A DNA stretch of 64,000 nucleotides, taken from Sedimentisphaerales bacterium (GTDB taxonomy: Bacteria; Planctomycetota; Phycisphaerae; Sedimentisphaerales; SM23-30). The DNA lies in contig CAXXFK010000006.1 in NCBI GenBank assembly GCA_963663965.2, forward strand, positions 64,001 through 128,000. The letters run 5' to 3'. The notes beneath the pieces were generated by a model. It had not been told where the DNA came from, searched no databases, and saw nothing but the letters and a program-made list of their open reading frames with translations. The position numbers and the translations under genes were made by a program. Positions 14,992-40,533 of this stretch are shown piece after piece; position 1 is the stretch's first letter, and each line of letters starts with the position of its first letter.

Positions 14992-16737
14992 TTATGTAGC
15001 AGCCTCTTCTTCGGGCGTATTATTCTGATCAGTTTTCGGCCGTTTAATCAAACTCAGCACTGCGCCCGCGATCAGCAGTAAAAAGCCCAGTATCACATAT
15101 CGCCACTGTGCCATATGTCGCGACAGCATATACAACCGTACTCCCGGCGCGATCATCAGAGTTCCCGCTACGAGCCAGTCTCGATGCCTTATCCAAATCG
15201 CCCATGCAAGCGCCGCCGTTAGTAACACCACAATCAGATAGCTGAAATGCACCTGGTTTGGCAGTAGATCGTACAGGCAAAGCGTTAAACACCACGCCGC
15301 CACGATCCGGAATCCCCGGTGTATTTTCGCGCCAAAGATCAATCCCAGAATCAAAGTCGCCAGCCCGAAAAATCCCGCCAGGCCGCTGACCGGTGCCAGA
15401 TTCAAAGCTGATAAGAGCTTGCCGGAACCTCCCAGGAAACCAAAATCGACACACAACACCCCGATACTAGCCAGACAGAAATAAGGCTGCCATTTAATCA
15501 GCCCCCAACTCATCAATGCCGCCGCCAGGGTCCAGGCCGCCGGATGATAATGTAATGCGTAGGGCGCTTCCGGCCGGAATCCCATTGTCAAAATCACTCC
15601 CAGCCCATAGGCACATGCCACATAGCTCAGATACTTTAACCGGTGACGCCAAGCGATCCAGAGGACTGCCAATCCAGACAGGGCGATAAATACCGGCGGA
15701 TACGCAATCAGATCAACCATGACCTTCCCGGATACTACCACCGATTTCTGATCGATTGCGACTAAAATTGCGGCCAACGGCAGTCCAGCCAGTATGAATT
15801 CGATCATGCCGGCCCGTTTTCCACTTAACCGAAAAACCTCAATCAGTAACAGGCACCCTAGCGTGATAGCGGGGCAATAATCGCCCATCGTCCGTTCCAG
15901 CGTAAAAGTAAAAGACATTGAATACTGGTGAACACACGCCGCCGCCAGCAGTATCAATCCAAAGAGAACCGCCATCGCCGGCGATTGCAGGTACGCCGGC
16001 CGACTTTCGTCCGATTGGGCTCTCGGCGTTGACTGTAACGCGCTCAGCAGCATCAATCCGCCGCCGGCCAGCAATCCATACCACAGCGCCATCCAGATCC
16101 CGCGTCGTTGCATCTCTTTGGCGGCGTTACTTGCCAGCGAATCCGTTAACCAGACCGGCCCCAGGTAATTAATTACCACAATTAAACCCAATCCAGTGAG
16201 CATCGCCGCGTTAAACGGTACCCGTACCCATCGTTTCAGAACCCCCAGCTTAATCAAGCCAAGTGCCACGCCGGCAATTCCGGCCGTCAGCGCGTTCGCC
16301 ATATTCTTCTCCGCGATCGATCCCACCGCGATACTCGTCCCGATCAGATACAACGCGATCAGGACCATCAGCGAAATCGCGTCATCCACTACCTTTTTTC
16401 CCACAATCAAAATCAATACCGCCAGCAGCGCGATCTCATAACCATGCAGTGTTAACAGGCACGGCAGCGCCTCCCGCAGTGTCTGACCGGACGACAGAAT
16501 TGGCCCCAGCATGTTAACGATCCCGTACGTAATAAACACCGCGCTCAGGCAGTAAAACAGGCTACCCCCGGTCAGGTTAAAAAAAGCCTTCCAGGTCAGG
16601 TCCTGATACGGTTTATTTCCTGTGGCTGCCGGGAATATTTCTTCCACTGGTATATTACCTTGGAGGCCATCAATCAATGCTTTCTCAAAGCTGGTATCTT
16701 CCGGCAATTTCTGTTCAGGGGTATCAGGGGTATCCAT
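14992..16737 (-). CDS. Polytopic membrane protein of unknown function
   Basis: 581 aa with many hydrophobic segments; immediately downstream of the pseudopilin gene. Confidence 0.75.
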   Translation of the reverse strand: MDTPDTPEQKLPEDTSFEKALIDGLQGNIPVEEIFPAATGNKPYQDLTWKAFFNLTGGSLFYCLSAVFITYGIVNMLGPILSSGQTLREALPCLLTLHGYEIALLAVLILIVGKKVVDDAISLMVLIALYLIGTSIAVGSIAEKNMANALTAGIAGVALGLIKLGVLKRWVRVPFNAAMLTGLGLIVVINYLGPVWLTDSLASNAAKEMQRRGIWMALWYGLLAGGGLMLLSALQSTPRAQSDESRPAYLQSPAMAVLFGLILLAAACVHQYSMSFTFTLERTMGDYCPAITLGCLLLIEVFRLSGKRAGMIEFILAGLPLAAILVAIDQKSVVVSGKVMVDLIAYPPVFIALSGLAVLWIAWRHRLKYLSYVACAYGLGVILTMGFRPEAPYALHYHPAAWTLAAALMSWGLIKWQPYFCLASIGVLCVDFGFLGGSGKLLSALNLAPVSGLAGFFGLATLILGLIFGAKIHRGFRIVAAWCLTLCLYDLLPNQVHFSYLIVVLLTAALAWAIWIRHRDWLVAGTLMIAPGVRLYMLSRHMAQWRYVILGFLLLIAGAVLSLIKRPKTDQNNTPEEEAAT

Positions 16738-16742
16738 GTGTT

Positions 16743-17651
16743 TTACCTCGTTCGATATTGATTTTCATCTATTCCCGGCGGTTCCGTTTCCTTATCCGCC
16801 CACGCCCATTTCAGGTTACCCAGCGGATTATCGCTCCTGCTGTTACCGCGTATCTGATCTTCATATTCGATCCTCTCCACATGCCCATCCAGCATGACCA
16901 CGTTCCCCCAGCCATAATCCAGCTTTTTCGCGTTATTGACTCCATGATAGGTCGCGATACAATCCTGCGGTGTCTCATCGGCGCTGATCTGCAATACCGT
17001 ATCATCCAATCCTGCGCTGCTCAGGGACACCGATCCCTTACTGATAAACGAAGATGACCTCGCCCGGCCCCATATTGGCCATGAGTTTTCCTCACCAAAG
17101 AAAAATACTTCATCCGTCTTTTGTACCTGCGACAGCCGCCTCACACCGCCGGCCTGATCGCTGCCCAGGTACCCGTTCATCGTATAACTGTTTTGCGGCT
17201 TGAGATCGATCGATTTCACATGCTCGGGATTGGAACACCCCCGGCTGGGCGCGTAACGACGGAAGGTCGGGCACGGCCCGTAATAACCCCCGTCAAAATA
17301 GCTCCACAGCGTACCCCGAAAACCCTCGGTCTGCGCCATGACCTCACCATTGGGCGCCATCACTATATCATGCCAGCGGCAACCCATCGGATGCTCCTTG
17401 CTGACCGAAGACTCATGGTACAGCCAGCCCCGTGCCTCCGGAAACATCTGATTTTGATCATCCAGATAGACTGAACCCGCCTGCCCGTACCTGTGCAGAT
17501 AACTCATACACACGACTGCAGTTGACTGGCTTCTCGCTTTATTCAATGACGGCATGAGAAATGCCACCAGCAGCATAATCACCACGATGATGCAGAGCAG
17601 TTCAATGATCGTAAATCCGTTGCCGGCCTGTTTAAAACACCGTTTGTTCAT
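16743..17651 (-). CDS. Prepilin-type N-terminal cleavage/methylation protein (H-X9-DG-like)
   Basis: GFTIIELLCIIVVIMLLVAFLMPSLNKAR; NVVMLDGHVE. Confidence 0.88.
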   Translation of the reverse strand: MNKRCFKQAGNGFTIIELLCIIVVIMLLVAFLMPSLNKARSQSTAVVCMSYLHRYGQAGSVYLDDQNQMFPEARGWLYHESSVSKEHPMGCRWHDIVMAPNGEVMAQTEGFRGTLWSYFDGGYYGPCPTFRRYAPSRGCSNPEHVKSIDLKPQNSYTMNGYLGSDQAGGVRRLSQVQKTDEVFFFGEENSWPIWGRARSSSFISKGSVSLSSAGLDDTVLQISADETPQDCIATYHGVNNAKKLDYGWGNVVMLDGHVERIEYEDQIRGNSRSDNPLGNLKWAWADKETEPPGIDENQYRTR

Positions 17652-17913: not shown

Positions 17914-18798
17914 CTACCAATGAATTGTTCGGGATACGATTCGATTGATAGGCAGCTCAGAGAAGTTGGAGGGTAATATTTCCCATTCATAATAAATGGC
18001 GTTGTCCCTTCTGAATACCTTAACAGGAATGTTGGGATTATGCCATGTTATCTTCTCATGACTGCAATTCGAAAGAGAACAATCGGACGATTGATTGAAG
18101 TCCTCTGGATATCCCGGGCATCGGCGGGTGACGGCAATTGGAACTTCGGGAACATGCAAGGTAAAGGACCAGTCAACCATATGATTGATGGATATTCCCT
18201 GTCCCGTATTGCTTAACTCGCAACGGGATATCTTTCGTTCAGCGAGATGTTGCACAAGCTCGGATTTGTCGATACTGAGGGATTGATAATGTTGCCGAAG
18301 TTCATCGGTGGGGGGGCGATACTTTAACAGACAGGTCTCGCCATCAAAATTTGTTAAAATTCGTTGAGTCGCATGCTGATACATGCTGTTGTCGAACCGC
18401 ATGATGCGCGGATCAGTTTGCTGGCCGGCCAGCCATCGACCGAGGACAACCTCGCAAACATCCAGGCGGCTCAATACATCCAGAAGTCCCCAATCGTTAC
18501 AGACGACTTCAAATTTTTGTTGTATCTCCCCAAGCGTTTTCACTAATCCACTGACCCTATCCAATCCTGAATTGGTTAACGGTGGCGTGACCAGAGTAAT
18601 CTCAATGCCATTTTTTACCAGGTATTTCCCGAGTTCAAGCGCCACCTCACAGGATGGCAGGAGGCGTTCACAGGTTTCGTGGCCGAAATAGACCCGGTGA
18701 GAATTAAAATCGCAATTCTCGGCCTGCCACCAATCTATCCAGATTGCTTTTTCCATGTCCAACTCAAAATAATCTTTTCGCCTTATTGGTAATAACAA
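17914..18798 (-). CDS. U32 peptidase-family-like protein (UbiV-like partner subunit); likely start at 18756
   Basis: RVYFGHETCERLLP, ITLVTPPL, EVVCNDWGLL, LGRWL and a Cys-rich C-terminal segment; adjacent to a canonical U32 gene. Confidence 0.65.
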   Translation of the reverse strand: MLLPIRRKDYFELDMEKAIWIDWWQAENCDFNSHRVYFGHETCERLLPSCEVALELGKYLVKNGIEITLVTPPLTNSGLDRVSGLVKTLGEIQQKFEVVCNDWGLLDVLSRLDVCEVVLGRWLAGQQTDPRIMRFDNSMYQHATQRILTNFDGETCLLKYRPPTDELRQHYQSLSIDKSELVQHLAERKISRCELSNTGQGISINHMVDWSFTLHVPEVPIAVTRRCPGYPEDFNQSSDCSLSNCSHEKITWHNPNIPVKVFRRDNAIYYEWEILPSNFSELPINRIVSRTIHW

Positions 18799-19772
18799 TT
18801 CGACTGCTCACAAGCCGCTCCGAAAGTGTCCAAATATAACCTCTTTAATTTTTCCGACACAGTATCATCAGTCTTTATCGTGTTCCATAAACGAATGGAT
18901 TCTTTCAGGAAATTTGCCGACCTGCATATTATTTCCGAGTCATAACCCCGGCCGGCGATTTTGAAAAGACTGACACCGGCGTTCCATAATTCCCTTAATC
19001 GACAAGCGCCACAATGCGGTTTATAAAAATCGTCTCGGGTTAGATTAGAGACCCTGCCGTTCGCTGTCTCCCATTCCAGCTGGCAGCCATGACCTTCATA
19101 ACCGGGATCCGGCGAGTATACGGTTTTAATCGGGCCTTCTGTAATGACTTTATCGATGAATACGGGGGCGTCAACCGGTAACCGTACGCCATGGTAGAAA
19201 TTGCATAATCCATCGATGAACTGGCACTTCTGATTCATGACCAGCATTTCATATTCGATATCAGGCCCTCGATTAATGATACTTTCAATTTCCTTTAAAC
19301 TCAGGTGCCTTGGCAACACGACTCTGCTGACACCAAAATTGGCAAAATAGTTTATGGCGGCGCTGTTAAAGGGGGCGGCCACAATAGACAAATGATAATG
19401 AATCTTCCGGCAGTAATTTTGTAATGTGATTAACAACCCGGCATCAGCAATAATCATTGCCCCGCCTCCCGCGTCTTCCCACTGCTGAGCCAATTCAATA
19501 ATAGCGTTGACCTGCTGAGAGGAGTAATGACTGTTCAGAGTCAGGATGGTGTTAATTCCTCTGGTTTTGCCGATCTGGGCAATGCGGCTAAGGTCTTCTG
19601 AATTTCGAATGTGCGAAGATCTTCCCTGACGCCGACTGATAGTATCCGAATCTCCGTATTTGTCGCACCAGGCATCAGGCATGACGCCAAAATAGACTTC
19701 ATTCGCGCCGGCGTCAATGACCCGCAGGGCTTCCGTTTCCGAACAGATAGGGGCGACTATTCTGGGATTTAT
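18783..19772 (-). CDS. U32 peptidase-family Fe-S protein (UbiU/RlhA/TrhP-type putative hydroxylase)
   Basis: In-frame IVAPICSETEALRVIDAGANEVYFG upstream of the first ATG; IIADAGL, HLSIV, RVVLPRHLSLKEI, CQFIDGLC (Cx6C), CGAC, FKIAGR. Confidence 0.85.
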   Translation of the reverse strand: MNPRIVAPICSETEALRVIDAGANEVYFGVMPDAWCDKYGDSDTISRRQGRSSHIRNSEDLSRIAQIGKTRGINTILTLNSHYSSQQVNAIIELAQQWEDAGGGAMIIADAGLLITLQNYCRKIHYHLSIVAAPFNSAAINYFANFGVSRVVLPRHLSLKEIESIINRGPDIEYEMLVMNQKCQFIDGLCNFYHGVRLPVDAPVFIDKVITEGPIKTVYSPDPGYEGHGCQLEWETANGRVSNLTRDDFYKPHCGACRLRELWNAGVSLFKIAGRGYDSEIICRSANFLKESIRLWNTIKTDDTVSEKLKRLYLDTFGAACEQSNCYYQ

Positions 19773-21376
19773 CGAAGCGATGTCAGTTCTCCAGATTCCA
19801 TCTTGATCGCCGCAACCAGCTCTTCCAGCGAGTGAAAAAAACCTCCCGAGACCAGCATTCGGGCCCCCTGGATGGCTTTGTGGTAGTTGTCGTTGCGAAT
19901 GGGGTTGATTGCGGCATGACTGGCGTTGCCCGATTCGTGCATCGAAAGAACTTCAAAAAAACTTCTGGCTACTTCATGGTCAAGATAACTTAATATGTCT
20001 TTAAGTTTCAGAAGGGAAGGGGCAAATCGATCGTCAAAACGGCGCTTGGCGAGCAAAGGCGGTAAAGCACAAACCGCCTGCATGGAGGGGGCGGCCAGGG
20101 GATTAATGGCATCCAGCAAATCACGGTGGAAGGAATCAATTTCTGAGTGAATATAAGGGATAGGCTGAGGTCCCGGATTCGAGGAATGATACTGACCTGA
20201 ATTGACTCCATCGATATAATACTGCGATCCAGGCATGGCGTCCATGCGGTTTCTGGCGGAACGATATTCCAGAAGATGAAATTCTTTGAGTTTCAGGGCA
20301 AAGCGCTTGATTCCTTCCAAAGTGGCGTGAGAATGAAACATCATGACCCCGACATGAATTTCAGCCCCTTTTTTCCTGATCTCATTAACCAATGGCCATG
20401 GATTCTGGGTATAGGGCCGGTGCCATCTGCGGAGATCCGCCGGATCGTCAGATTCCAATCCCATAAAGACATAGGTGAGACCCGCCCGGGCTAACAGGTG
20501 AATAATCTCCTCATTCAAAGAATCCGGACGGACCTGAATCCCAAAGGAGATCTGTAACTGTCTTTGACATATCTCATCGGAGAATTCCCTGGCCCGAATG
20601 GTTGAATGATGATTGTTACCCAGAAAATCTTCATCAATAAAATTAAAAGACCGTGCTCCCATGTTCCGATTCAGGTTTTCGATTTCGTCCACAATATTTT
20701 TAATGGATCGTCCACGCCAGCGATTGGATGAATTCAGGGACATACCCGGGGAAGAGCAAAACATACAGGCCCCGCAACAACCCCGTGAACCCTGAAGATT
20801 GAAAGCCCAGCCGCTCCCCAGTATCTGTTCTGCGTAGGGCCGCTTGGGAAAAGGCAGCGTATCAAGATCATGGACTGCATGACCGCGGTATATTCTGGAT
20901 GGGTCAGGCTTGACTCCCGGATTTTTTGGTCCGGTCCAGTCATTCAAAAGTGATTGAACCAACGTTTCACCCTCAAATTGTGCCAGTAAGAAATCGGACG
21001 GCAGCATCTTGTCGGCGGCATCCAGTTCCGTCGAAATAAAATTTCCACCGGCCAGCCAGAGCACGCTTTTATCGCCCGAAAGCTTTTTTATTTCAGCGTA
21101 AATCGTCAGGACCGACTGGATTTCCTGGGCGGTTGTAATGGAAAAACCGATGACATCGGGTTCAAACGAGGCGGCTCGACGGGCTAAACGCGCATCAGTT
21201 AATCGATCCAGCGAACTGTCGAGTATGAGTACAAGACCGCCGGACGATTCTATCAGGGAGGCCAGGTACTCTATTCCAAGCGGTTCTTGAATTTCCGGAT
21301 CATAATAGGGAGAACAATTTTGCGGGCGTATCAGAACCCATCTCATTTTAGGAATTGGATCGCACATACATCTCAT
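19769..21376 (-). CDS. Cobalamin-binding radical SAM enzyme (class B methyltransferase-like)
   Basis: EPLGIEYLAS / PDVIGFS B12-binding domain; SRGCCGACMFC (CxxxCxxC), FIDEDF, MGLES. Confidence 0.9.
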   Translation of the reverse strand: MRCMCDPIPKMRWVLIRPQNCSPYYDPEIQEPLGIEYLASLIESSGGLVLILDSSLDRLTDARLARRAASFEPDVIGFSITTAQEIQSVLTIYAEIKKLSGDKSVLWLAGGNFISTELDAADKMLPSDFLLAQFEGETLVQSLLNDWTGPKNPGVKPDPSRIYRGHAVHDLDTLPFPKRPYAEQILGSGWAFNLQGSRGCCGACMFCSSPGMSLNSSNRWRGRSIKNIVDEIENLNRNMGARSFNFIDEDFLGNNHHSTIRAREFSDEICQRQLQISFGIQVRPDSLNEEIIHLLARAGLTYVFMGLESDDPADLRRWHRPYTQNPWPLVNEIRKKGAEIHVGVMMFHSHATLEGIKRFALKLKEFHLLEYRSARNRMDAMPGSQYYIDGVNSGQYHSSNPGPQPIPYIHSEIDSFHRDLLDAINPLAAPSMQAVCALPPLLAKRRFDDRFAPSLLKLKDILSYLDHEVARSFFEVLSMHESGNASHAAINPIRNDNYHKAIQGARMLVSGGFFHSLEELVAAIKMESGELTSLR

Positions 21377-21406
21377 CTAAACAATCATTGGAACATCTAA
21401 TGTTAT

Positions 21407-22543
21407 TCAGCGTTTAGCGTTCGCGCTGTAGAAGATGCTTATGAATAACGTTGTTGAGGCGAATATAATCCATCCTGAACCGGCAGGAATGCCCCAGCTG
21501 ATCAAATATAATATCGAATAGCACAGGCCACAGGCGATAAAAGTCCAGACCTTGGATCTTCTAATAAATAATATACAGAGAAACAGGCTGATAATCCCAA
21601 ATATAATGATAAATACCACACGATTCCCTGTGGTGTCTCTACCTCCCCAGTGCCCGATGAGGCCGGTTTGTAAAATATCCGGAAGAACAGTGGACGCTTG
21701 CATCAGTTGTTTGTATTTAATGGGAACATCCTTGTCAACCCATGGGATCAACAGGTTCCGGGCCTCGCGGAAATCACCCGCTCCATGTTTGTACCAGGCC
21801 AGGTTAAAAGCGGCCGATGGCATGGTGAGGCATTTTTCATAAGCTTCCCGGGCGATAAGTTCTGCCTGGCCGCTCTGGTGAAGTCTTTCGTAAACCACCG
21901 TTAAATTGATTAAGGATGGGATATAACCTGGGTTTTGTTTTCTCAGGCATTCAAGGTTTAGCTGGGCCGTAAGATCTTCGTTTCGATGCAATTCGGACAA
22001 GGCCAGATTGTTCCTTGCGTCAAAGTGATAGGGCTTCGCCTGTAACGCGAGAGTATACTTTTCAATGGCCCCGTCAAAATCGCCATTGCGGTATAATGTA
22101 TTGCCCTCTTCATAAAACGTGGCGCCCTCATTACTTTCCACGCCGGGGTCTTGATACTCCTCAACCATTGAAATCCATTCCTTTACGGCATCCTGGACTT
22201 GTTCGCATTTTCGATATGGATTTAACTTGTACAGTTCCTTTCGGACGCCAATGGACTCGAAGGTAAATCCTTTGACGACCATTTGATTGATCGTCGTGAT
22301 CGAATCGCCCGCAATGTCATCGTATTCTTTGAGCGGGCCTGTCAGATACATTTTGTCGGCGCTGACAAAATCGTGGGGATCCGCTCCAAACTGATAGTTT
22401 CCAAATTGAGATTCCTCTGTGTTGTCGGCGTAACAGGATGATCCGCCGCCAATGAGAATAACGCCCCCGGACAGAATCAAGAGCAGAGATAACGCAATTT
22501 GCTTCGCAGCTTTAAAATAATTCATGACAATCCCTTTTTGCAA
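21407..22543 (-). CDS. Tetratricopeptide-repeat protein with N-terminal signal and C-terminal TM helices
   Basis: GNTLYRNGDFDGAIEKYTLAL, ARNNLA, AAFNLA TPR motifs; about three C-terminal hydrophobic helices. Confidence 0.8.
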   Translation of the reverse strand: MQKGIVMNYFKAAKQIALSLLLILSGGVILIGGGSSCYADNTEESQFGNYQFGADPHDFVSADKMYLTGPLKEYDDIAGDSITTINQMVVKGFTFESIGVRKELYKLNPYRKCEQVQDAVKEWISMVEEYQDPGVESNEGATFYEEGNTLYRNGDFDGAIEKYTLALQAKPYHFDARNNLALSELHRNEDLTAQLNLECLRKQNPGYIPSLINLTVVYERLHQSGQAELIAREAYEKCLTMPSAAFNLAWYKHGAGDFREARNLLIPWVDKDVPIKYKQLMQASTVLPDILQTGLIGHWGGRDTTGNRVVFIIIFGIISLFLCILFIRRSKVWTFIACGLCYSILYLISWGIPAGSGWIIFASTTLFISIFYSANAKR

Positions 22544-22556
22544 ATACTTGATACTG

Positions 22557-22898
22557 TTACTTTAATGCACCGGCGCGCAGCGACACCCATAACCCCCCTC
22601 CTCCGCTCCGGTGACTGTTGCAGGAACAACTCACATGACCCACACAACTGCAGGCCGGAACGCAGGTACATACCTTATTGCATGAGCAGTAGACAGCGCC
22701 TACGGGATGACAGGAACACCCGGTTTCAGTGCGTTCTTCGTTGATGAGACCGGAGGTGTCCGAAAAGAACGTGTCTAGACTTGGACGTGGAAATTCCTTG
22801 CCATTGATAATCATGGTTATTTGGGGGATGGAATTGTCATCCTCGTTGCTGTCAGTTAAGTTGGGACGATCATTGGGCCTGTCGCTCATGGGTTTCAT
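22557..22898 (-). CDS. Cys-rich putative RiPP precursor peptide (CxC repeats); true C-terminus probably ...GGGGYGCRCAPVH with stop at 22562
   Basis: Acidic leader with FPRPSL motif; core CSC-CSC-CTC-CSC-CSC; overlaps the 3' end of the rSAM-SPASM gene; 6-G run at 22593-22598. Confidence 0.75.
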   Translation of the reverse strand: MKPMSDRPNDRPNLTDSNEDDNSIPQITMIINGKEFPRPSLDTFFSDTSGLINEERTETGCSCHPVGAVYCSCNKVCTCVPACSCVGHVSCSCNSHRSGGGGLWVSLRAGALK

Positions 22899-24267
22899 TC
22901 CTGTCTTTTGGGCATTCAGCCGATTCGGATAAACGGATTTTAACTAAATGTTCAAGTTGCAACCGGGTTAACGCTCTGTTCAGGTCGCAGCGGATAGTGC
23001 CACAGTGCGGACTGTCATTATCTCGATTTTTAAACACTTTCGCAAGGCAATCCCCGGCGCAATGCCATTTACAGAAGCAATCGGCACAGTAGGGGTGGTT
23101 CTCGACCGACAATCTTCGCAGCGCTTCAATTCGGTTATGGTCAAAGCAAAACATCGATTTCGCTTGATCGTATCGCCCGTAATGAAAAATCCCGGCTCGA
23201 GGATCGGCACAGTCCATTACTTCATAACAGGAAGTGACAATGCCTTCGGGAAGGATCGTGAAGCCATCTCCTGAGGCGGCGCAAAATTTACTTGTGATGA
23301 CATCGAGTCTTGCGCCGCTGTAATTCACATCGACCCCCAGTTCCCGTCCGCGTTCATAAGCTTTCATGAAATGCTCAATAAAAATATCGTCCGGGGGGGG
23401 CGACTCGCCGCTGATGGCGCATCGGCCGCAAAGGAAAACGGGCTCCATCTGCAAATAGGCAAACTGAAATTGATCGCGCAGCTTTTCGACGATTTCCACC
23501 ATTCGCGTAACGGTTGACCGGGTAATCGTCGTTCGAATGCCATAGAAAAAGCCGGCCTCGTCAAAATATTTCAGGGTCTCGGCTATTTCAGCGTAAGAAC
23601 CGTTGCCGTCCGTTTTGGGGCGATTATAGTCATGGATGTCCTGGGGGCCGTCCAGGGAGATGTTGACCGTGGAAAAATGCCGGGCGATAAATTCCCGTTG
23701 CTCTTTGGAAAGTAAACCATTGGTAGCCGCGAACAGGTTCACATCAAGCCCTTTTTGGGCGGCAACCTCACAGGCATATGTTACGGATTGTTGAATAAAA
23801 TCCCAGGCCTGGGTGGGTTCGCCCCCTCCATGATAGCCTACGGAAAAATTTTTGCTTCCCAGCCGGGCCGCATTTCTTGCGACAAAGTCGATGGCGGCTT
23901 TTCCGATCTCAAAAGGCATTTCTAAAAATCGGGTTCCGGCGTTCGCGTAACAATATCGGCAGCGAAGGTTGCACCGCGAGGTGGGAAATAGAGTGACCTC
24001 ATGTGGACTGAATTCACCTTGTTCCGGAAATCGGGGACTGTGCAGGGTGGGGGGATCGATGATTCCCTCTTGTCTGAGCTGGTCGATGATGGCGGAAGCC
24101 TCCGGGGACAATTCTGATCCATTGTTATTTAAATACGCCGACACAATTCTCGCCGCGGCGCGATTAATTACGGCAACACTCCGCAGAAGGGGGGCGTATA
24201 AATAATAGTCATCTCCAGAACGGGGAATTAAAAACAAATCATTGTTTTCTCTTGGGGACATAATCAT
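22870..24267 (-). CDS. Radical SAM/SPASM domain peptide maturase with an N-terminal RRE-like domain
   Basis: CNLRCRYC, YHGGGEP, ATNG, ISLDG...HDYNR; SPASM FCAAS...GIVTSC...CADCFCKWHCAGDC...C; N-terminal YYLYAP...LRQEGII. Confidence 0.92.
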   Translation of the reverse strand: MIMSPRENNDLFLIPRSGDDYYLYAPLLRSVAVINRAAARIVSAYLNNNGSELSPEASAIIDQLRQEGIIDPPTLHSPRFPEQGEFSPHEVTLFPTSRCNLRCRYCYANAGTRFLEMPFEIGKAAIDFVARNAARLGSKNFSVGYHGGGEPTQAWDFIQQSVTYACEVAAQKGLDVNLFAATNGLLSKEQREFIARHFSTVNISLDGPQDIHDYNRPKTDGNGSYAEIAETLKYFDEAGFFYGIRTTITRSTVTRMVEIVEKLRDQFQFAYLQMEPVFLCGRCAISGESPPPDDIFIEHFMKAYERGRELGVDVNYSGARLDVITSKFCAASGDGFTILPEGIVTSCYEVMDCADPRAGIFHYGRYDQAKSMFCFDHNRIEALRRLSVENHPYCADCFCKWHCAGDCLAKVFKNRDNDSPHCGTIRCDLNRALTRLQLEHLVKIRLSESAECPKDRNETHERQAQ

Positions 24268-24785
24268 TAACTGTAGCTTTCTGTATAATTATCGACAATA
24301 CAGGCATAAAAGGGCTCTGCCAGAAATCCCATCGCACCGAGTTGAGATATGAAATAGGCGATTTGTGCACAAAACCGAGAGTGCAATGTCAATCCATGCG
24401 AACGGGCTGTTAATCTGGCGATATCCTCCACCGTGTGTCGGCCATCTAACAGTTGAATGACTTCCGCCCCCAGTTTATTGACGACACACAACGAGGAGTC
24501 GGCATCATTTTCTTGCTTGACAACCAGATCAGATTTATCGTTAGAAACATGCACATCTGTCTTGAGTTGCGGATAGCAGGGTTTTTCTAAAGCAGGGTTT
24601 CCGGAATGCATCTCATCTGAAGGGGGCCTGGTAAATGCAAAATATCCGACTATTGATCCCACCGATCCAACACCCAGGGTAATGATAAAATTTCGCCGGG
24701 TATAATCTTTAGAAACGGGATGACTATCTACTTTTTTAAAAGCATGCAATTGGTTGAGTTCTGAATGGTCATCATGTTCAGACAT
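24267..24785 (-). CDS. PqqD-family / RiPP recognition element protein with a twin-arginine N-terminal signal or anchor
   Basis: AAGGAG RBS before ATG 24785; TRRNFII followed by a hydrophobic stretch; VVNKLGAEVIQLLDGRHTVEDIA...FISQLGAMGFL PqqD pattern. Confidence 0.75.
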   Translation of the reverse strand: MSEHDDHSELNQLHAFKKVDSHPVSKDYTRRNFIITLGVGSVGSIVGYFAFTRPPSDEMHSGNPALEKPCYPQLKTDVHVSNDKSDLVVKQENDADSSLCVVNKLGAEVIQLLDGRHTVEDIARLTARSHGLTLHSRFCAQIAYFISQLGAMGFLAEPFYACIVDNYTESYS

Positions 24786-25056
24786 TGACAGCTCCTTCGA
24801 AACTATTTTTTTATCGATAGTTATATAATAAATCCAATCAAAGACCATTTTTTATAATATATCAAACAGACAGCTGTTTGTCCAAAAGAAAATATTGGGT
24901 TATTTTAATCTCTGTTTGGTCTGGCTCTCACTTTCTATCTGCTACGCGTAACCGATGAAAATTATCCATGTGTTTTCCCTTGCATATCCCCTTTCAGCAA
25001 GTATAGTTAATGCCTTGCAAACCATTTAAACCATATGCCTCAAAGGAGTTAATGCC

Positions 25057-31815: not shown

Positions 31816-32133
31816 TTAACCGGATATCGTTTGTGATGAAATGGCATTTTGCGCCCGGCAAAACGCTTCCTTAAAAAGTTGGAGATTACGGGCTGGATCT
31901 TGTTTATAGGAAATAATACGGAGCGACCTGTTGCCTTCGATCCCTTTGAGAAAATAACAGTTTTTAACATGAACCTTAAAAAATGGTCGGGCGAAGTCCG
32001 GATAGTAATCCAGATTACCTTCGGATGCCCAGAACAGGATAAATGCTTTATGGATTGGCTCATCCAGTAATATCTCTTGCATAATGGTGCCGTCAAAGCA
32101 GTCTTCAACCGGTTTTGTCTGGACAATATTCAT
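31816..32133 (-). CDS. Hypothetical protein downstream of the cysteine desulfurase
   Basis: 105-aa ORF (VEDCFDG...YYPDFARPFF) in line with the operon. Confidence 0.65.
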   Translation of the reverse strand: MNIVQTKPVEDCFDGTIMQEILLDEPIHKAFILFWASEGNLDYYPDFARPFFKVHVKNCYFLKGIEGNRSLRIISYKQDPARNLQLFKEAFCRAQNAISSQTISG

Positions 32134-32161
32134 ATTATTTCATTTCAGGTATTCAACGTGG

Positions 32162-33310
32162 TCAGAGAGCGTGGATCATTTGTTTCAGTGCATCGATTAG
32201 AGTTTGTATTTCTGAAGCATGATTCAAAAACGAGCAGCTGATCCGCACGGTTCCGCCACTCGAACTGCCTAGATAGGAATGGATCAGGGGCGCGCAGTGC
32301 AGTCCGGTCCTGCAAATGATACCAAACGAATGTTCCAGTATAAATCCGCATTCTTCAGCCGGAATCCCTTTGATGTTAAAACTGACAATGGCATCGAAAT
32401 GGTCTGAATCTTCGGTAAGCCGACTGCGGTACAATGTCACCCGTGGTTCATCAAGCAGAAACTCCAAGAGAGGCTTGATCAGTTGAGTCTTATGCTGCTG
32501 GATAGATGAAGGGCTGTTTTGCCGGCAGAAAGTTACCCCGGCGCCCAGGGATGAAAATCCCGGGCCATTCAACGTGCCCGCTTCATACCTGGCCGGGCGT
32601 TCGATCGGTTGCAATTGATAATCACTGCGCGTGCCGGTGCCTCCGGTAATGAGGGGCGCCGGTTGAAAAGTATCCGCCAGATATAACCCTCCGGTTCCCT
32701 GATAACCGAAGAGATTTTTGTGCCCGGCAAAAACCAGCGCATCAACAGGAATGTCTCGGATATGAATGGGTATTGATCCGGCGGATTGCGATGCGTCCAC
32801 GACCAGGCAGGCTGGATGATCTTTGACGAGATGACCGATGGCTTCGATATCCTGAATAGCGCCGGTAACATTACTGCAGTGATTGACCACTACCATCCTG
32901 GTCGTTGGCGTCAGGGCGTCACCAATGGCTTCCGGAGATACAAAACCCAGTTGATCGCATGGAACGATAGTGATATCGATTCCCCGCTCAAGCTTGAGAT
33001 GGTTAAGCGGCCGGTAGACGGAGTTGTGTTCGATGGCGGTTGTGACAACATGATCCCCGGGCCCCAGTGACCCCAGCATGACAAGATTAAGGGCATACGT
33101 GGCGCCTGGTGTCAGGATGATGTCAGACGAATGCTCGGCGCCCAGTAGCCGGGTTAAAGCCTCACGGCAAGACCGGACCGGATCTCGATCATATTGTTCG
33201 ACCCCTGCGCGCCCGGCATGAGATGGAAACGAACAGATCGTCTGTTGAACCGCTTGCAGAACGACTTCTGGTTTGGGGTAGCTGGTGGCGGCATTATTAA
33301 AATAGATCAT
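32162..33310 (-). CDS. Cysteine desulfurase family protein (aminotransferase class V, SufS-like)
   Basis: YFNNAATS, EHNSV, DASQS, AGHK (PLP Lys), EAGT, RTGLHCAP. Confidence 0.93.
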   Translation of the reverse strand: MIYFNNAATSYPKPEVVLQAVQQTICSFPSHAGRAGVEQYDRDPVRSCREALTRLLGAEHSSDIILTPGATYALNLVMLGSLGPGDHVVTTAIEHNSVYRPLNHLKLERGIDITIVPCDQLGFVSPEAIGDALTPTTRMVVVNHCSNVTGAIQDIEAIGHLVKDHPACLVVDASQSAGSIPIHIRDIPVDALVFAGHKNLFGYQGTGGLYLADTFQPAPLITGGTGTRSDYQLQPIERPARYEAGTLNGPGFSSLGAGVTFCRQNSPSSIQQHKTQLIKPLLEFLLDEPRVTLYRSRLTEDSDHFDAIVSFNIKGIPAEECGFILEHSFGIICRTGLHCAPLIHSYLGSSSGGTVRISCSFLNHASEIQTLIDALKQMIHAL

Positions 33311-33337
33311 GAATAGCGACGATCGTCTGTAGCGTTA

Positions 33338-33931
33338 TCATGCGCGGGTGATAATAAATTCTCCGTAGGAATCGCCCATTTCAATGCCTTTGGTCTGGGT
33401 GCACTTGAAAGTCCCCAGGCCCTCTGGATAAGCCTGGCCATACGCAATATCCATAAAAGCCCGGCAAACGCCGCGAATCATATAGGCGCACGGTTTCTTC
33501 ACTTGAAACGTGTCCGTGATTTCAGACTCATAATAGTTATAAGCCCTGACCACCATTTTCTGGTTCGGTTGCAATTCGACGATTTCTGAATTGGCCCATC
33601 CCCAGGCCGTGAAAACGGCGAAAGCGCCATGTAATACATCTTCCGGAACGTTGGTAATCATGGGACCGACTATCGACTGGAACTCCTCGGAGTTGACAAT
33701 GCCATATCCGGTGTGATAGCCGCATTCTGCCGCGGCCCTTTCCAACCCGGTTTCTGCCTCCTCGTAATATTTACTGCCGGCAGCCTTCAATATTTTCTCT
33801 GTAAAGGTGTTCCAGAAATAAGCGGGTAGAAATTGCACCAGCACCCCAAACGCCGGAATCAGGCCTTCCTGGTTGCCTTGGACTTTTATTTGAGAAAGGT
33901 CATGAATTGCTTTTTTGCGATCGATAGCCAT
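33338..33931 (-). CDS. V4R-like domain protein
   Basis: AWGWA, YES, PCAYMIRGVCRAF, TQTKGIEMGDSYGEF follow the V4R layout. Confidence 0.65.
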   Translation of the reverse strand: MAIDRKKAIHDLSQIKVQGNQEGLIPAFGVLVQFLPAYFWNTFTEKILKAAGSKYYEEAETGLERAAAECGYHTGYGIVNSEEFQSIVGPMITNVPEDVLHGAFAVFTAWGWANSEIVELQPNQKMVVRAYNYYESEITDTFQVKKPCAYMIRGVCRAFMDIAYGQAYPEGLGTFKCTQTKGIEMGDSYGEFIITRA

Positions 33932-33934
33932 TGC

Positions 33935-34465
33935 TCATTCTCCCTTTAAATTAAGAGTGAATTCTGATTGTTTGTGTCCCATAACGATGCTGCGTGTTTC
34001 CTCGACCTCATAGCTGCCGATTGGTTCATTATAGATAACGGAAAAGGCCCCTTGCAGATAGCCTTGTCCGATAAAGTTGACCGGTTGATTATGCCTGTTC
34101 CATTTTTTTAACCACCCTTCATCGAGGTGTGAATGGGACATAACCGCGTTGCCGCCCTTACGCCCAAAACAGGTTAATTCCAATTGTCCCAGACCAATCA
34201 AACCGAAGTATTGCGTGGCAATAGCGATTTTATCTTCCGGATCGGTAATGTTGTTGGAGATCATGTATTTCTGTAATACCAGGAAGCTGGATTCTTCCAT
34301 GGCTTCCCGCAGCAGGACGGTTCCGTTAAGGTTGTCCAGGTCAAATGCTAATTTGGTAAAAAGCGTGGCATAATGATGACAGTGCAGCACCGATGTTTCA
34401 TTGTTGACATATTGCAGCATCTTAAGGTTGTCGAATTCCTGAATAAATTGGCATTCAGCGCTCAT
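33935..34465 (-). CDS. V4R-like domain protein with HCHHY motif
   Basis: IGLGQL, PVNFIGQGYLQGAF, EVEETRSIVMGHKQSEF. Confidence 0.65.
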   Translation of the reverse strand: MSAECQFIQEFDNLKMLQYVNNETSVLHCHHYATLFTKLAFDLDNLNGTVLLREAMEESSFLVLQKYMISNNITDPEDKIAIATQYFGLIGLGQLELTCFGRKGGNAVMSHSHLDEGWLKKWNRHNQPVNFIGQGYLQGAFSVIYNEPIGSYEVEETRSIVMGHKQSEFTLNLKGE

Positions 34466-34483: not shown

Positions 34484-35626
34484 TCAATGGTGAAGGCAGC
34501 CCAGCAGTCGTTTGGCTCGAACGGTGACTCGTCCTAGTTTATTGACACCGTCGATGATTCGGAACTTCTCCTGACAGGTTCGATGGGTGTCTTTGTCGAT
34601 GTTCTCACTGATTCGAACCAGATTTTGAATCGCCTGCTTGATTTCCTGATTGGCGATGGATTGCGCATTCAGACTTTCTCGTAACTCATCATTAATGGTC
34701 ATCAGGTTCTTGGTCAGTGTGTTGAATTCTTCTGCCGCTGCCGCCTGAGAGGTCATGTTTTGAGAAATCTGCTGGGTAAAATCTTTCATTTTGGTTGTCA
34801 GATCTTCAATCGATGAAAACGCGTTAATCGCTTTGGAGGCGCTGGCTACGGATAGTTCGACATCTTTTAGGACATGCTCAACAGATTGAGTGATATGTTG
34901 CACGTTGTCCGCGCTTTGATTGGCCAGATTTTTGACTTCGTCCGCTACGATGGCGAAACCCTTGCCAAACTCACCGGCCCGGGCCGCTTCAATCGTGGCA
35001 TTCAGGGCCAGCAGCTTGGTTTGTTCTGAAATCTCGGATATGATTTCAATCGCTTGATTAATCTCTTTGGATGATTCCACCACGGAATTGATCGAGGTAA
35101 CGGTTTCAGATACGATAACCGATCCCGAACGTGCTGAATCGTTGAGTTCGCCCGCGATGATATCTGAATTGGCGGCTTGCTGACTGGCTTCAGTAATCGC
35201 CAGGACCATCTGTTGGGTGCTATCGGCAAAATGATTGACAATTCGGGTTTGTTCTTCCATACGATTGCTGATCGATTCAATACTGGCAACCATTTCTGTT
35301 ACTGCCGCGGAACTGGTATTAGAGACCTCTCTCTGTTCTATCATATTCTGAGAAATATTGTTCAGCGCGTTGATCGTGTTATCGGTCATTTTGATAAAGT
35401 ATTCGAAAGCGTTGTTCAGAACGTTGACATTCATTTCCAGTTCATTGTAATAAGTGTTATTGCTCTGATGCTGTTTTCCTGACCAGAAGTTGATGGCTTT
35501 GGATAATAATAGCACAGGTAAAATGAATAACCATTTGAGTTGAATATCCCCTTCAAACAGGATTAAAGAAATAATGGCAGTTTCAATAACACTGACGACA
35601 ACGATAGAAATGAGTCTTCTAACCAT
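34484..35626 (-). CDS. Methyl-accepting chemotaxis protein without a periplasmic sensor domain
   Basis: [34 protein letters not shown] signalling hairpin; two closely spaced N-terminal TM helices. Confidence 0.92.
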
Positions 35627-36511
35627 CGATACACCTTTCTGAAGTTTCTCTCTTTTCTGCCCTGTAAAGAGTTATCTGCCAGTTAGGAAGGGTACTTAAA
35701 TCGGTCTCAAAATAATTTTTGTATTTAGCAAGGTAGGCATAAAAAAGAATTTAATTATTATGAGTGTTCACATATTCATTCTGGTGCTAGATGTCCCGGC
35801 TTATAGAAAGGGTATCGGTATGAATGACCTCCGGATATCCAAAAAAACAATCATAATACTTTGAATCATAGTAACATACAATTATTAGAGTGTGGCCTCT
35901 GAGTATAATAGGGCATGAATACCACCCACTAAGGCATCAAAATCATGGCTTAAGGATAGACAAAACGATCACCTTAACGGTATATGGGAAGTGATTCTCA
36001 ATCCCGGCTACTCATAATTCCTCCAGACGGCACCATCGAACGGGCTGCCCGCGAACAACAGTTATCAGCCTGTTCTGCGCAGGATATGGGACCTGCTGGC
36101 AACCACAGATTCAGCCCGATGTCTGACAAGTAGCTCAACCATTTCTGGTTAAGATTCTTTCACGTACAACGACAATCACCTCCCAGCAATTCTCCACCAA
36201 TCCAAACCTTACCTTGTGTATGGGCACACCTCCTTACCGTCGTTTTTCCAATTTATTCCGTCCAGGTATAGACACAATGCGTTGTGTCTCTTACTCGCTC
36301 CCGCAAAGTACAATTTATTAATAATCCTGACGGTATGGTCAGTTCGCGAACCGCCTATAGATCCCCGTGATCCCCGATATCCAAATAAGGCTCCGGCTCA
36401 AAACAGCCTTGATTAGTGTCCTTTCATGGTCGTTTATGGGATTTTTTTGAAGTTTCGCAGGTTTATAAAAAGCTCTTTCAATATTTGCGATACAAACTTT
36501 TTATATAAAAT

Positions 36512-36556
36512 AAAAAAAAGAAAGCCAAGAGGTATTATAACTTCTTGGCTTTCTTT
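36512..36556 (-). terminator. Intrinsic terminator downstream of the tRNA-Val 3' fragment
   Basis: AAAGAAAGCCAAGA / TCTTGGCTTTCTTT inverted repeat with an A-run (U-tract on the minus strand). Confidence 0.75.
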
Positions 36557-36566
36557 GATTTATGAA

Positions 36567-36608
36567 TGGGCGATACTGGACTTGAACCAGTGACCCCCAG
36601 CTTGTCGA
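36567..36608 (-). other. 3' half of tRNA-Val(GAC); island attachment site
   Basis: Minus strand TCGACAA-GCTGG-GGGTC-ACTGG-TTCAAGT-CCAGT-ATCGCCC-A; no D-arm or 5' acceptor strand upstream; adjacent to the integrase. Confidence 0.85.
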
Positions 36609-36770
36609 TTAATGGAACTTATTGGTTCTAAGTAATTTTAAAACAAGCGAATATAATTGTGCAATGTATATAAATATCTGGAAACATTGGCTTAATATCA
36701 ATTAATAGCGTATTATAGATAATTGAAACTTACTATAAATTATTCTATTTTCCTGTTTTTTCTTGCATTC

Positions 36771-36789
36771 TGTCTAAATAATGTCTAAA
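36771..36789 (+). repeat. Tandem TGTCTAAA direct repeat with 11-bp period, putative integrase arm-binding sites
   Basis: TGTCTAAAtaaTGTCTAAA between the att site and the integrase start. Confidence 0.5.
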
Positions 36790-36822
36790 AGACTTATGAA
36801 CCTTTTAAACAGGGAGAAAACC

Positions 36823-38121
36823 ATGGCAGGAAAAAGAAAAGCACCTAAGCTTCGGATCGATGGTTCTTATTATACGTCGAAAATATACACTCCGAAAGGG
36901 AACCGAACAACGATTAGTTTTGGGCATGTTAATGATAGGCCGGAACCGGAAGTTTATGCAATTTTTGCAAAATGGATTGATTTATACCAGAAGCAGCCTC
37001 AGAAAATGCTTTCTTTTGAGAGCCCCTATGAAGCTGTTGAGCAGGTAATTAATCCGACAACATTTACAACAGTGGAGGATTTTCTCGAAAGATATCTACA
37101 GTGGGCAAGTGAGAATGAAAAGGGATCTCGTGCCAGTAAGGCTGTTGATATCTATAGAATTAATCGAATAAAACGATTTCTTGAACCTTATCATGATTGG
37201 CCAGTAAATGATTTTGGACCAGACGAGTTGAAAAAAGTACAGAAAGCGTTAAGTCAATACAAATATAAGACCGGAGACAAAGAGAAGAAATATACGCGGG
37301 GTGCTATTAATGATACGATAAAGTATATTCGTAAAATATGGCGATGGGGTTTGGGCCGAAGAGTAGTCAGTTACGAAGTTGTGCAGAGTCTGGAAGAAGT
37401 CAGGCCTGTACGCCTTGGTCAAGGGGAGGTCTATGATAAGCCAAAACGGGCTCGGGTTACTTACGATGAGTTCTTTAAGGTTAGTGGGGCGGTGAATGCT
37501 ACAATCTCAGATATGCTTCAATTGATCTGGCATACAGCAATGAGGCCCTATGAAGTCTGCGAAATGCGGCCGTATGATATCTTGATTGAGGATGAAGAGT
37601 GTTGGCTCTATATTCCGGGACGGGATATAACTCCATATGGCAAACATAAAACTACACATATGGAGCGAGTTAAAGTTATTCCTTTGACCAGAAAATCTCA
37701 GGATATATTGAAGCGGCGAATCACCAATTATGATTCTAAGGATTACATCTTTAGTCCAAAAGTGGCAGTTGATGAAATTTTGGAGGAAAAGCATCAAGGG
37801 CGAAAAACGCCCTTAAAATATGGTAATCGGCCTGGAACAAATAAAAGGGAACATCCGATGATAAAGCCGGGTGAGAAGTATTCACCTAGTGCGCTTAGGA
37901 TTGCTTGTAAACGTGGTTGTATGCGGGCTGAAGTTGAGGTGTTTACACCTTATGATTTACGTCGAAGTGTAGCCACTGAAACTAGAGCTAGTTTAGGTAA
38001 AGAGGCGGCCAAAGTATTACTTGGACACACGAAGACAGATACGACAGATATTTATCTATTGGATGAAGTCAAAGAGGCTGTAAAAGTGGCCAAGTTGTTG
38101 GCTAAGATTAATGGGGAATAA
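36823..38121 (+). CDS. Tyrosine recombinase / site-specific integrase
   Basis: GGGAG RBS; catalytic motifs MRPYE, HKT, YDLRR, LLGH, IY; AT-rich relative to flanks. Confidence 0.92.
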   Translation: MAGKRKAPKLRIDGSYYTSKIYTPKGNRTTISFGHVNDRPEPEVYAIFAKWIDLYQKQPQKMLSFESPYEAVEQVINPTTFTTVEDFLERYLQWASENEKGSRASKAVDIYRINRIKRFLEPYHDWPVNDFGPDELKKVQKALSQYKYKTGDKEKKYTRGAINDTIKYIRKIWRWGLGRRVVSYEVVQSLEEVRPVRLGQGEVYDKPKRARVTYDEFFKVSGAVNATISDMLQLIWHTAMRPYEVCEMRPYDILIEDEECWLYIPGRDITPYGKHKTTHMERVKVIPLTRKSQDILKRRITNYDSKDYIFSPKVAVDEILEEKHQGRKTPLKYGNRPGTNKREHPMIKPGEKYSPSALRIACKRGCMRAEVEVFTPYDLRRSVATETRASLGKEAAKVLLGHTKTDTTDIYLLDEVKEAVKVAKLLAKINGE

Positions 38122-38517
38122 AATGAATGCTCACATTGGTTGATTTTAGGATGGGTTAGTGGTCCGTTCCGTTCTGATAATATTAGGGATTAAAAGACCA
38201 TAGCGGAATTTTGATAAACGACTACAATACAAAATGTTACGATAATAACGAGATTGAGCGTGTCCAAAAGCTTGCCCAATGCCTGTTATCCGACAAACAT
38301 TTTATGACACTTGCAGAGGAATGGGAAAAGCTTACAGAAAGCCAGAAAATTGCAGTGAATGGTATTGTTCAGGTGATAATGACACTTTGATACTTTTTGA
38401 AACGAACGGTTTGTAGATATTATTCCGCACAGGAACCAGCAGCCGATATGGCAGCGTTTGCCCCAACCACCGCTAAACCCTATTACCATCGTAAATCCTG
38501 AGAGATCCGTTGCCTAG

Positions 38518-40505: not shown

Positions 40506-40533
40506 CTAGATCAACTGAACTTGGCCTCAATAA

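What the first reader, a model, noticed from the sequence alone, without database searches (positions are those of the whole stretch)
17914..24785. Candidate undescribed RiPP system: Tat-RRE + rSAM/SPASM + CxC-repeat precursor + TPR + B12-rSAM + U32 pair
Seen in sequence: seven co-oriented, abutting or overlapping minus-strand genes encoding a PqqD-like protein, an rSAM-SPASM enzyme, a 113-aa Cys-rich peptide, a TPR membrane protein, a cobalamin-binding rSAM and two U32-family proteins. The block looks less GC-rich than the flanking GH92 gene (by eye). Established: RRE + rSAM-SPASM + Cys-rich peptide is the sactipeptide/ranthipeptide pattern; B12-rSAMs C-methylate RiPPs; U32 proteins (UbiU/V, RlhA, TrhP) are Fe-S, O2-independent hydroxylases. 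Inference: an anaerobic pathway making a thioether-crosslinked, methylated and possibly hydroxylated peptide. I know of no characterised RiPP class with this enzyme combination. No leader protease or ABC exporter is visible, which suggests an unusual export route or role, such as a cell-associated metal-binding peptide.
Basis: partly seen in the sequence, partly recalled or inferred. Interest (0 to 1): 0.9.

Follow-up and report, generated by a model that had tools for sequence, protein, structure and literature searches.

The report
Seven-gene histidine-tailed peptide maturation system
Seven neighbouring genes, conserved across many bacterial groups, most likely cross-link a small cysteine-rich peptide, chemically alter its final histidine without using oxygen and carry it out of the cell, using enzyme types not yet shown to act on such peptides.

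Summary
The operon is real and conserved: 32 non-redundant loci among 160 fetched hold all seven genes, 30 in the same order, under at least ten phylum labels. Main correction: the 113-aa precursor is frameshifted at a C6 run (22593-22598); the neighbouring frame ends GYGCRCAPVH-stop, matching the family's C-x-C-[AV]-P-V-H end. That terminal His tracks the tailoring genes: B12-rSAM in 34 of 34 PVH loci against 0 of 13 other precursor rows, U32a in 29 of 29 against 0 of 11, and two nested lineages lost both the His and the adjacent B12/U32 genes. The rSAM/SPASM is closest to the thioether synthase CteB. U32a is a divergent PF01136 member; U32b has no Pfam match but is a TIM barrel with a UbiV-like Cys layout and is fused to U32a in some hosts. 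The RRE has RRxF in 40 of 42 homologues; no protease or exporter is conserved. Best reading: a new ranthipeptide-like family whose His is hydroxylated by a UbiU/V-like pair and probably methylated, then exported by Tat on the RRE to an outside TPR partner. All chemistry and export are inferred. No family model or paper found describes it.

The parts
24856..24884 (-). Best sigma70-like promoter match upstream of the operon (10 of 12, extended TG); weak
   Evidence: 18 sites found against 11.7 +/- 3.5 in shuffles, so not significant alone
24267..24785 (-). Tat-RRE, 172 aa: twin-arginine motif (RRNF, residues 30-33) and hydrophobic anchor, then a PqqD/RRE domain
   Evidence: PqqD matched by 37 of 42 homologues at E<=0.05; profile hits PDB PqqD at E 1.5e-4 and, weakly, Rieske Tat anchors at E 0.05-0.25; RRxF in 40 of 42; Atlas top hits are PqqD clusters
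22870..24267 (-). Radical SAM/SPASM maturase, 465 aa, CteB/PapB-like: CxxxCxxC at 99-106; C329, C347, C394, C397, C403, C407, C427; extra invariant C280, C283, C399
   Evidence: CteB 5WGG E 1.3e-35, next anSME 2.4e-17; all NCBIfam models far below cut-off
22562..22889 (-). Precursor gene: leader (PxDR ... PxI ... RPxLxTFF), CxCxxV/H repeats, Gly/Ser linker, terminal CxC[AV]PVH; start probably the second ATG (22889); reading frame broken in this assembly
22593..22598 (.). C6 run (G6 on the coding strand) where the precursor frame shifts; probably an assembly homopolymer error, possibly a true mutation
   Evidence: run; one 151-nt record of run X3 lacks one base at 22593; no X1 or X2 record spans the run
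21407..22525 (-). Extracytoplasmic TPR protein, 372 aa: N-terminal signal-like stretch, TPR core with conserved Asn residues, variable C-terminal membrane segments
   Evidence: N207, N241 invariant; N172, N173 at 90% or more of 30 rows
19769..21346 (-). Cobalamin-binding radical SAM enzyme, 525 aa from the conserved MRWVLIRP start
   Evidence: closest solved structure OxsB E 3.6e-28, CysS 2.6e-7, Trp C2-methyltransferase 6e-5
18783..19772 (-). U32a, 329 aa, UbiU-like U32 protein; apparent ATA start overlapping the B12 stop; invariant E175, C183, C190, C230, C254, C257, C321, C326
   Evidence: PF01136 97 bits over cut-off 22.4; best NCBIfam UbiU 76.7 of 440 bits; model best matches U32 Mk0906 5D88, Z 16.6, rmsd 3.8, 214 aligned, tied with CutC
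17914..18756 (-). U32b, 280 aa, unannotated TIM-barrel partner with a UbiV-like Cys layout (C29 ... C213-x12-C-x4-C); fused to U32a in L012, and fused as a Cys-less half in five Coriobacteriia-type loci
   Evidence: 78% probability to U32a; 5D88 Z 12.7, rmsd 3.9, 198 aligned, tied for top

Best explanation
A dedicated anaerobic maturation and export pathway for one ribosomal peptide. (1) Shown: the seven genes travel as a unit. (2) Inferred: the rSAM/SPASM binds the leader and forms Cys-S-to-carbon thioether links along the CxCxxV repeats. (3) Inferred from co-loss: the B12-rSAM and the U32a/U32b pair act on the C-terminal PVH, most likely the His; the U32 pair adds an O to the imidazole without O2, with prephenate as donor by analogy to UbiU/V, and the B12 enzyme adds a C-methyl or does OxsB-type radical chemistry there. 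(4) Inferred: the membrane-anchored Tat-RRE binds the uncut leader and carries the folded peptide through the Tat channel, where the outside TPR protein holds it; this explains the lack of a protease and exporter. The product is a retained periplasmic or surface peptide with a modified His, probably a metal- or redox-active unit, not a released antibiotic. In this assembly the precursor's His tail is out of frame, more likely by assembly error (about 65%) than by mutation.
For: Conserved seven-gene unit in 32 loci; closest solved enzyme is CteB with its seven SPASM Cys aligned; PVH against B12: 34 of 34 and 0 of 13 rows, against U32a: 29 of 29 and 0 of 11; L103 (ends PVRI) has neither gene in 9.6 kb downstream or the rest of its 21-kb locus and L066 (ends PVRVR) has an unrelated gene after TPR and no B12 orthologue in its draft genome; both nest among PVH loci, AU p 7e-10 against a PVH-only clade; U32a-U32b fusions; RRxF in 40 of 42 RREs; tatC genes directly upstream of the RRE in L114 and tatA/tatC-like genes 3 kb upstream in L015; TatC in 10 of 10 other hosts; in sister clades the same kind of leader and Cys core bracket a twin-arginine signal and a WD40 domain in one ORF (L046, L057); known U32 hydroxylases act on ring carbons without O2 (PMC10990095, PMC11574389, passages).
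Against: No activity, product or expression data. The His coupling rests on two nested losses in draft data; 11 of the 12 non-PVH loci are distant clades, so the large counts are not independent, and loss of the enzymes could simply have freed the tail. L092 has RRE, SPASM and the U32 pair but no precursor, TPR or B12 gene on a 19-kb contig. L053 has a more distant B12-rSAM beside a non-PVH precursor. Similar U32 pairs occur elsewhere (2010 clusters at E<=0.001; L167). TatC was not found in this genome (94.6% complete; TatA found; TatC in 16 of 18 same-family genomes). The extra invariant C280/C283/C399 could close the open AuxI site that thioether formation is thought to need. The residue after CxC is mostly not Asp/Glu, unlike freyrasin.
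Confidence: 0.5

Rival explanations
1. Same RiPP pathway, but B12-rSAM and U32 act on other core residues (Val, Pro, the repeats), and the His is only a recognition or metal-ligand residue.
For: Val is the commonest residue at repeat position 6 (206 counts); B12-rSAM RiPP methylases often target Val or Pro (recalled: PoyC, bottromycin enzymes); only two nested co-losses.
Against: L103 and L066 keep Pro-Val and the repeats yet lack the enzymes; known U32 substrates are ring carbons and His is the only conserved ring residue in the core.
Confidence: 0.25
2. The four-gene core (Tat-RRE, SPASM, precursor, TPR) is the RiPP system; the B12-rSAM plus U32 pair is a linked module that modifies a non-peptide (sugar, lipid, quinone or nucleoside) later attached or unrelated.
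Against: No glycosyltransferase, ligase or other gene cluster is shared beyond five of the 32 full loci; tight coupling of stop and start codons; co-loss with the His.
Confidence: 0.15
3. The RR segment is only a membrane anchor or pilot; the peptide is matured at the membrane and is not carried through Tat by the RRE.
For: No TatC found in this assembly; tat genes adjoin only 2 of the core-clade loci seen; no clear cleavage site in most RREs.
Against: RRxF in 40 of 42 at about 27% mean identity; N-in topology would put the RRE outside, where it could not serve cytoplasmic Fe-S enzymes (inference); Tat-signal fusions in sister precursors.
Confidence: 0.25
4. This particular copy is a decaying, inactive cluster (true frameshift plus ATA start).
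For: Two lesions in one operon; not found in 60 relatives searched; ATA present in the X2 record.
Against: The other six frames are intact; holders are at depth 2-4; one X3 record lacks the extra base, and three other X3 records match the window without differences; the ATA sits where several homologues have an overlapping ATG, GTG or TTG start.
Confidence: 0.3

Closest known systems
Ranthipeptides: CteB/CteA (SCIFF, thermocellin; PDB 5WGG) and PapB/PapA (freyrasin)
   Same: N-terminal extension plus rSAM/SPASM with the seven SPASM Cys aligned to CteB; Cys-rich precursor; top NCBIfam hits PapB and SCIFF maturase.
   Different: Scores far under cut-off (129 of 340; 118 of 425); CxCxxV repeats and a PVH end; three extra invariant Cys; added Tat-RRE, TPR, B12-rSAM and U32 pair; no protease or exporter.
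UbiU-UbiV (and RlhA, TrhP): O2-independent, prephenate-linked U32 hydroxylases
   Same: Adjacent pair; U32a has Cx6C plus later Cys; this U32b has an early Cys plus Cx12Cx4C, like UbiV's CXnCX12CX3C (PMC6747719, passages).
   Different: U32a scores 76.7 of 440 on UbiU with different spacing (Cx6Cx39C) and three extra invariant Cys; U32b has no family match and loses Cys in several lineages; no UbiT or ubi genes nearby; proposed substrate is a peptide.
Cobalamin-dependent radical SAM enzymes (OxsB; RiPP methylases such as TsrM, ApyD, TmoD)
   Same: B12-binding domain plus CxxxCxxC core.
   Different: No model near cut-off; much closer to OxsB than to the solved methylases, so methylation is not assured.
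QhpC/QhpD of quinohemoprotein amine dehydrogenase (mostly recalled)
   Same: A thioether-cross-linked small protein, further oxidised on a ring residue and exported to join a secreted partner: a functional analogy.
   Different: No heme subunit, flavin hydroxylase, protease or ABC exporter here; TIGR03906 96.7 of 453 bits.
Tat co-export of signal-less partners (hydrogenase subunits; recalled) and Rieske-type uncleaved Tat anchors
   Same: RRxF plus hydrophobic anchor; weak profile likeness to Rieske anchors.
   Different: The carrier would be an RRE and the cargo a RiPP; not found in the papers searched.

Membership tests
Ranthipeptide/sactipeptide | rSAM/SPASM with CxxxCxxC and seven-Cys SPASM motif beside a Cys-rich precursor | tested here: met
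Ranthipeptide/sactipeptide | Cys-S to carbon thioether in the product | not testable with these tools
   needs LC-MS/MS or NMR
SCIFF / PapB / other named NCBIfam maturase families | Score over the curated cut-off, and matching precursor model | tested here: not met
   best 129 of 340 bits; 0 of 7 intact family precursors match a peptide model at E<=1
Cyclopropyl synthases (TvgB, TigE) | GYW motif (PMC10878394, passages) | tested here: not met
   no GYW in the window protein or the consensus of 43 homologues
Peptidase U32 (PF01136), U32a | Pfam score over cut-off; TIM barrel; Cx6C-based Cys set | tested here: met
Peptidase U32 (PF01136), U32b | Pfam score over cut-off | tested here: not met
   0 of 25 homologues; 0 of 15 further stand-alone relatives and of 2 methyltransferase fusions, the one hit being the U32a fusion
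Peptidase U32 superfamily, U32b | U32-type TIM barrel and UbiV-like Cys layout | tested here: inconclusive
   5D88 tied for top with other TIM barrels but longest alignment; 78% to U32a over 82 columns; nearest Pfam-bearing Atlas cluster U32 at 0.78, a lead only
UbiU/UbiV ubiquinone hydroxylase | NCBIfam cut-off, CX6CX16CX38C in UbiU, ubi context | tested here: not met
PqqD/RRE | PqqD-type domain by profile | tested here: met
   window protein under cut-off (18.1 of 23.4) but 37 of 42 homologues match and the profile finds PDB PqqD
PqqD/RRE | Binds the precursor leader | not testable with these tools
   needs a binding assay
Tat substrate | Conserved RRxF plus hydrophobic segment; host has TatC | tested here: inconclusive
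   motif met; TatC in 10 of 10 other hosts but not found in this assembly
Class B (cobalamin) rSAM methyltransferase | Methyl transfer activity | not testable with these tools
   architecture met; nearest solved relative OxsB

The most novel reading that the evidence does not exclude
A new RiPP class in which a UbiU/V-like U32 pair hydroxylates a peptide histidine with prephenate oxygen, a cobalamin radical enzyme modifies the same residue into a new cofactor-like or metal-binding heterocycle, and a twin-arginine RRE carries the uncut, cross-linked peptide through Tat to a TPR partner. It would be the first U32 enzyme acting on a peptide and would give the U32 family a soluble, gene-encoded substrate for an in vitro assay.
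Probability: 0.3. Interest if true: 0.92.

Novelty: new variant of a known kind. Interest (0 to 1): 0.76.

Why it matters
Direct hydroxylase activity of U32 proteins had not been shown in vitro in the papers read, and most U32 subfamilies are uncharacterised (PMC10990095, PMC11574389, passages). A U32 pair tied to a short gene-encoded substrate with a predicted target residue makes that question testable by simple mass shifts and a one-residue mutant. The family also offers a test of RRE-mediated Tat export of a RiPP. A cultured host with an intact cluster exists: Desulfobacter curvatus DSM 3379 (L003), where NCBI names are only generic.

Tried and rejected
Complex prediction of RRE 62-172 with precursor 1-56: no verdict (0.29 and 0.19, mark 0.32). 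No RNA holder listed. Reads: X1 contigs break inside the C run and X2 stops at 21597, so neither tests the frameshift; the X3 record has only 17 letters on one side and a loose end, short of the tool's bridging rule. Foldseek on U32b gave generic TIM barrels and no U32 entry among the 50 rows shown. U32a profile found no solved relative by sequence. Low GC as a sign of recent transfer rejected. Programmed frameshifting rejected: homologues reach PVH in frame. Flanking pilin-like, membrane and GH92 genes are not part of the system: no tblastn hit for the pilin-like or membrane protein in 160 loci; GH92 was not queried, but no gene cluster beyond the seven is shared by more than five full loci. 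Conserved protease or exporter not found: ABC ATPases of mixed kinds in 5 of 32 loci. Paper searches with no description of the system: (0; 28 listed, none relevant by title and abstract start; 1; 1; 6; 1; 0; 3; 0), 103 (4); subscription papers are mostly outside the library and no supplements were read, so a listing in a genome-mining supplement is not excluded. Earlier-finding look-ups by place, sequence and PVH words gave nothing. The careful 85-row tree did not finish; quick trees were used.
Full report
Observation. Seven minus-strand genes lie between 17914 and 24785 with gaps of at most 60 nt: Tat-RRE 24267-24785, rSAM/SPASM 22870-24267, precursor 22562-22889, TPR protein 21407-22525, B12-rSAM 19769-21346, U32a 18783-19772, U32b 17914-18756. 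No NCBIfam model of a named RiPP system reaches its cut-off. The block's GC (0.478) is low only against GH92 (0.573); the genome is 0.486 and the block sits at the 37th percentile.

The precursor is frameshifted. The annotated 113-aa frame ends in a tail seen in no homologue, while the neighbouring frame reads GYGCRCAPVH-stop. Of 81 precursors picked by my pattern in the 160 loci, 59 end in PVH; of 51 distinct PVH precursors with a clear start all end C-x-C-[AV]-P-V-H, with 7 to 26 Cys in C-[STGA]-C-x-x-[VHY] repeats. The shift is at a C6 run, 22593-22598. One 151-nt record of run X3 lacks one base there, with only 17 letters on one side and a loose end; X1 and X2, at depth 2-4, do not span the run. 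I put assembly error at about 65%. U32a lacks a common start; its conserved N-terminus begins at an ATA overlapping the B12 stop, where several homologues have ATG, GTG or TTG in the same overlap; the X2 record, possibly the assembly's source, has the ATA.

Conservation. An alignment of 43 rSAM homologues fetched the best 80 of 197 genome loci and the best 80 of 144 metagenome loci. With profiles built from these same loci, 32 non-redundant loci carry all seven genes and 30 keep the order. Record titles span Verrucomicrobiota, Thermodesulfobacteriota, Pseudomonadota, Bacteroidota, Fibrobacterota, Acidobacteriota, Bacillota, Planctomycetota, Nitrospirota, Chloroflexota and Actinomycetota; most are MAGs and many are anaerobes. 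The rSAM was not found in 60 relatives of this genome, so the spread is patchy. Beyond the seven genes nothing is shared by more than five of the 32 loci (mixed ABC ATPases). More distant rSAMs (30-41% identity) often keep an RR-bearing upstream protein, a Cys-repeat precursor ending YWYPN-like and a secreted partner, but lack the B12 and U32 orthologues. The system is thus a four-gene core plus a three-gene tailoring module.

The terminal His tracks the module. Among precursor rows with at least 4.5 kb downstream, the B12 orthologue is present in 34 of 34 PVH rows and 0 of 13 others (12 loci; L113 counted twice); with at least 6 kb, U32a in 29 of 29 and 0 of 11; rows with less flank were dropped. 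Most negatives are distant clades, so the informative cases are nested: L103 (PVRI) lacks both genes in its 21-kb locus (its genome is not held), and L066 (PVRVR) has an unrelated gene after TPR, no B12 match at 1e-20 in its draft genome where three clade-mates have one, and only partial, distant U32 matches. A tree holding the 21 PVH rows together without them is rejected (p-AU 7e-10, quick tree of 31 rows that I chose). Against: L092 has RRE, rSAM and the U32 pair with no precursor, TPR or B12 gene on its contig; L053 has a more distant B12-rSAM beside a non-PVH precursor that my pattern missed.

Enzymes. The rSAM profile's best solved match is CteB (E 1.3e-35; anSME 2.4e-17), with the seven SPASM cysteines aligned; CteB forms a Cys-Thr thioether (PMC11002830, passages). 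It lacks the GYW motif of cyclopropyl synthases (PMC10878394, passages). Three extra invariant Cys (280, 283, 399) are unexplained. The B12-rSAM is closest to OxsB (E 3.6e-28), well ahead of CysS and the Trp C2-methylase; that OxsB does not methylate is recalled. U32a is a PF01136 member with seven invariant Cys and a model matching 5D88 (Z 16.6, rmsd 3.8, 214 aligned, tied with CutC). U32b has no Pfam match, belongs to a large unnamed family (2010 clusters), folds confidently as a TIM barrel (pLDDT 91) tied for best with 5D88 and aligned longest to it, and in the window shows an early Cys plus Cx12Cx4C, like UbiV's CXnCX12CX3C (PMC6747719, passages); the later Cys are variable or lost in several rows. 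It is fused to U32a whole in L012 and as a half in five loci. So U32a is probably the catalytic unit and U32b its partner.

Export. The RRE family matches PqqD (37 of 42; PDB PqqD E 1.5e-4) and has RRxF in 40 of 42 rows followed by a hydrophobic stretch weakly like Rieske Tat anchors. TatC-like genes directly precede the RRE in L114 and tatA/tatC-like genes lie 3 kb upstream in L015. TatC is in 10 of 10 other hosts checked but was not found in this 94.6% complete assembly (TatA found; TatC in 16 of 18 same-family genomes). In L046 and L057 one ORF runs leader-like stretch, RRxF signal, WD40 repeats, Cys repeats, YWYPC, which places the family's Cys core on Tat substrates. The TPR protein keeps a signal-like N-terminus and conserved Asn residues; that such Asn rows bind extended peptides is recalled.

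Mechanism and status. Shown: gene content, conservation, frameshift, motifs, His-module coupling in this sample. Inferred: thioether cross-linking (about 65%), action of U32 and B12 on the peptide (about 75%) and on the His in particular (about 50%), Tat co-export on the RRE (about 55%), retention by the TPR protein and a metal or redox role (about 35%).

Novelty. It works like a ranthipeptide pathway joined to a UbiU/V-like hydroxylase and a cobalamin radical enzyme, but it fails the membership tests of every named family examined. Ten paper searches found no description; five papers were read as passages only, no supplements, and most subscription journals are outside the library. In the cultured host D. 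curvatus the genes carry generic names and the precursor is 'hypothetical'. Verdict: real, undescribed as far as searched, a new variant of the radical-SAM RiPP kind with two features that would be new if confirmed.

Noticed in passing
L046:16093-17556, L057:16066-17523, L113:2918-4665, L071:8254-8754: Sister-family precursors with an internal twin-arginine or lipoprotein-like signal, some with WD40 repeats, between a leader-like stretch and a Cys-repeat core ending YWYPC/YWYPN: a modified tail on an exported protein.
   Followed up: partly
L026, L028, L033, L034, L036, L039, L042, L046, L052, L057: Distinct clade with RR-bearing upstream protein, YWYP-ended precursor and a large secreted propeller-like partner instead of TPR, without B12/U32; resembles a dehydrogenase-type layout.
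   Followed up: partly
P0246, P0268 and other hits: The U32b family is large and unnamed; some members are fused to class I methyltransferases.
   Followed up: partly
L167:1117-2926: Another U32a/U32b-like pair, in reverse order, in a Coriobacteriaceae genome outside this system.
   Followed up: no
L011:15134-16771: A transposase-like ORF splits the U32a gene in this locus.
   Followed up: no
L092:7032-10686: Partial cluster: RRE, rSAM and U32 pair with no precursor, TPR or B12 gene on the contig.
   Followed up: partly
window 14992-17651: Downstream pilin-like N-terminal protein (one of many paralogues in the genome) and a 581-aa membrane protein with no family match and no hit in the related loci.
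   Followed up: partly
window 35000-46400: Low-GC stretch (0.39-0.41 at 35-38 kb) with an integrase-like ORF and transposase-like fragments, judged by eye from translations.
   Followed up: no
window 31816-34465: Small minus-strand cluster: PLP cysteine-desulfurase-like gene and two related unannotated proteins, judged by eye.
   Followed up: no
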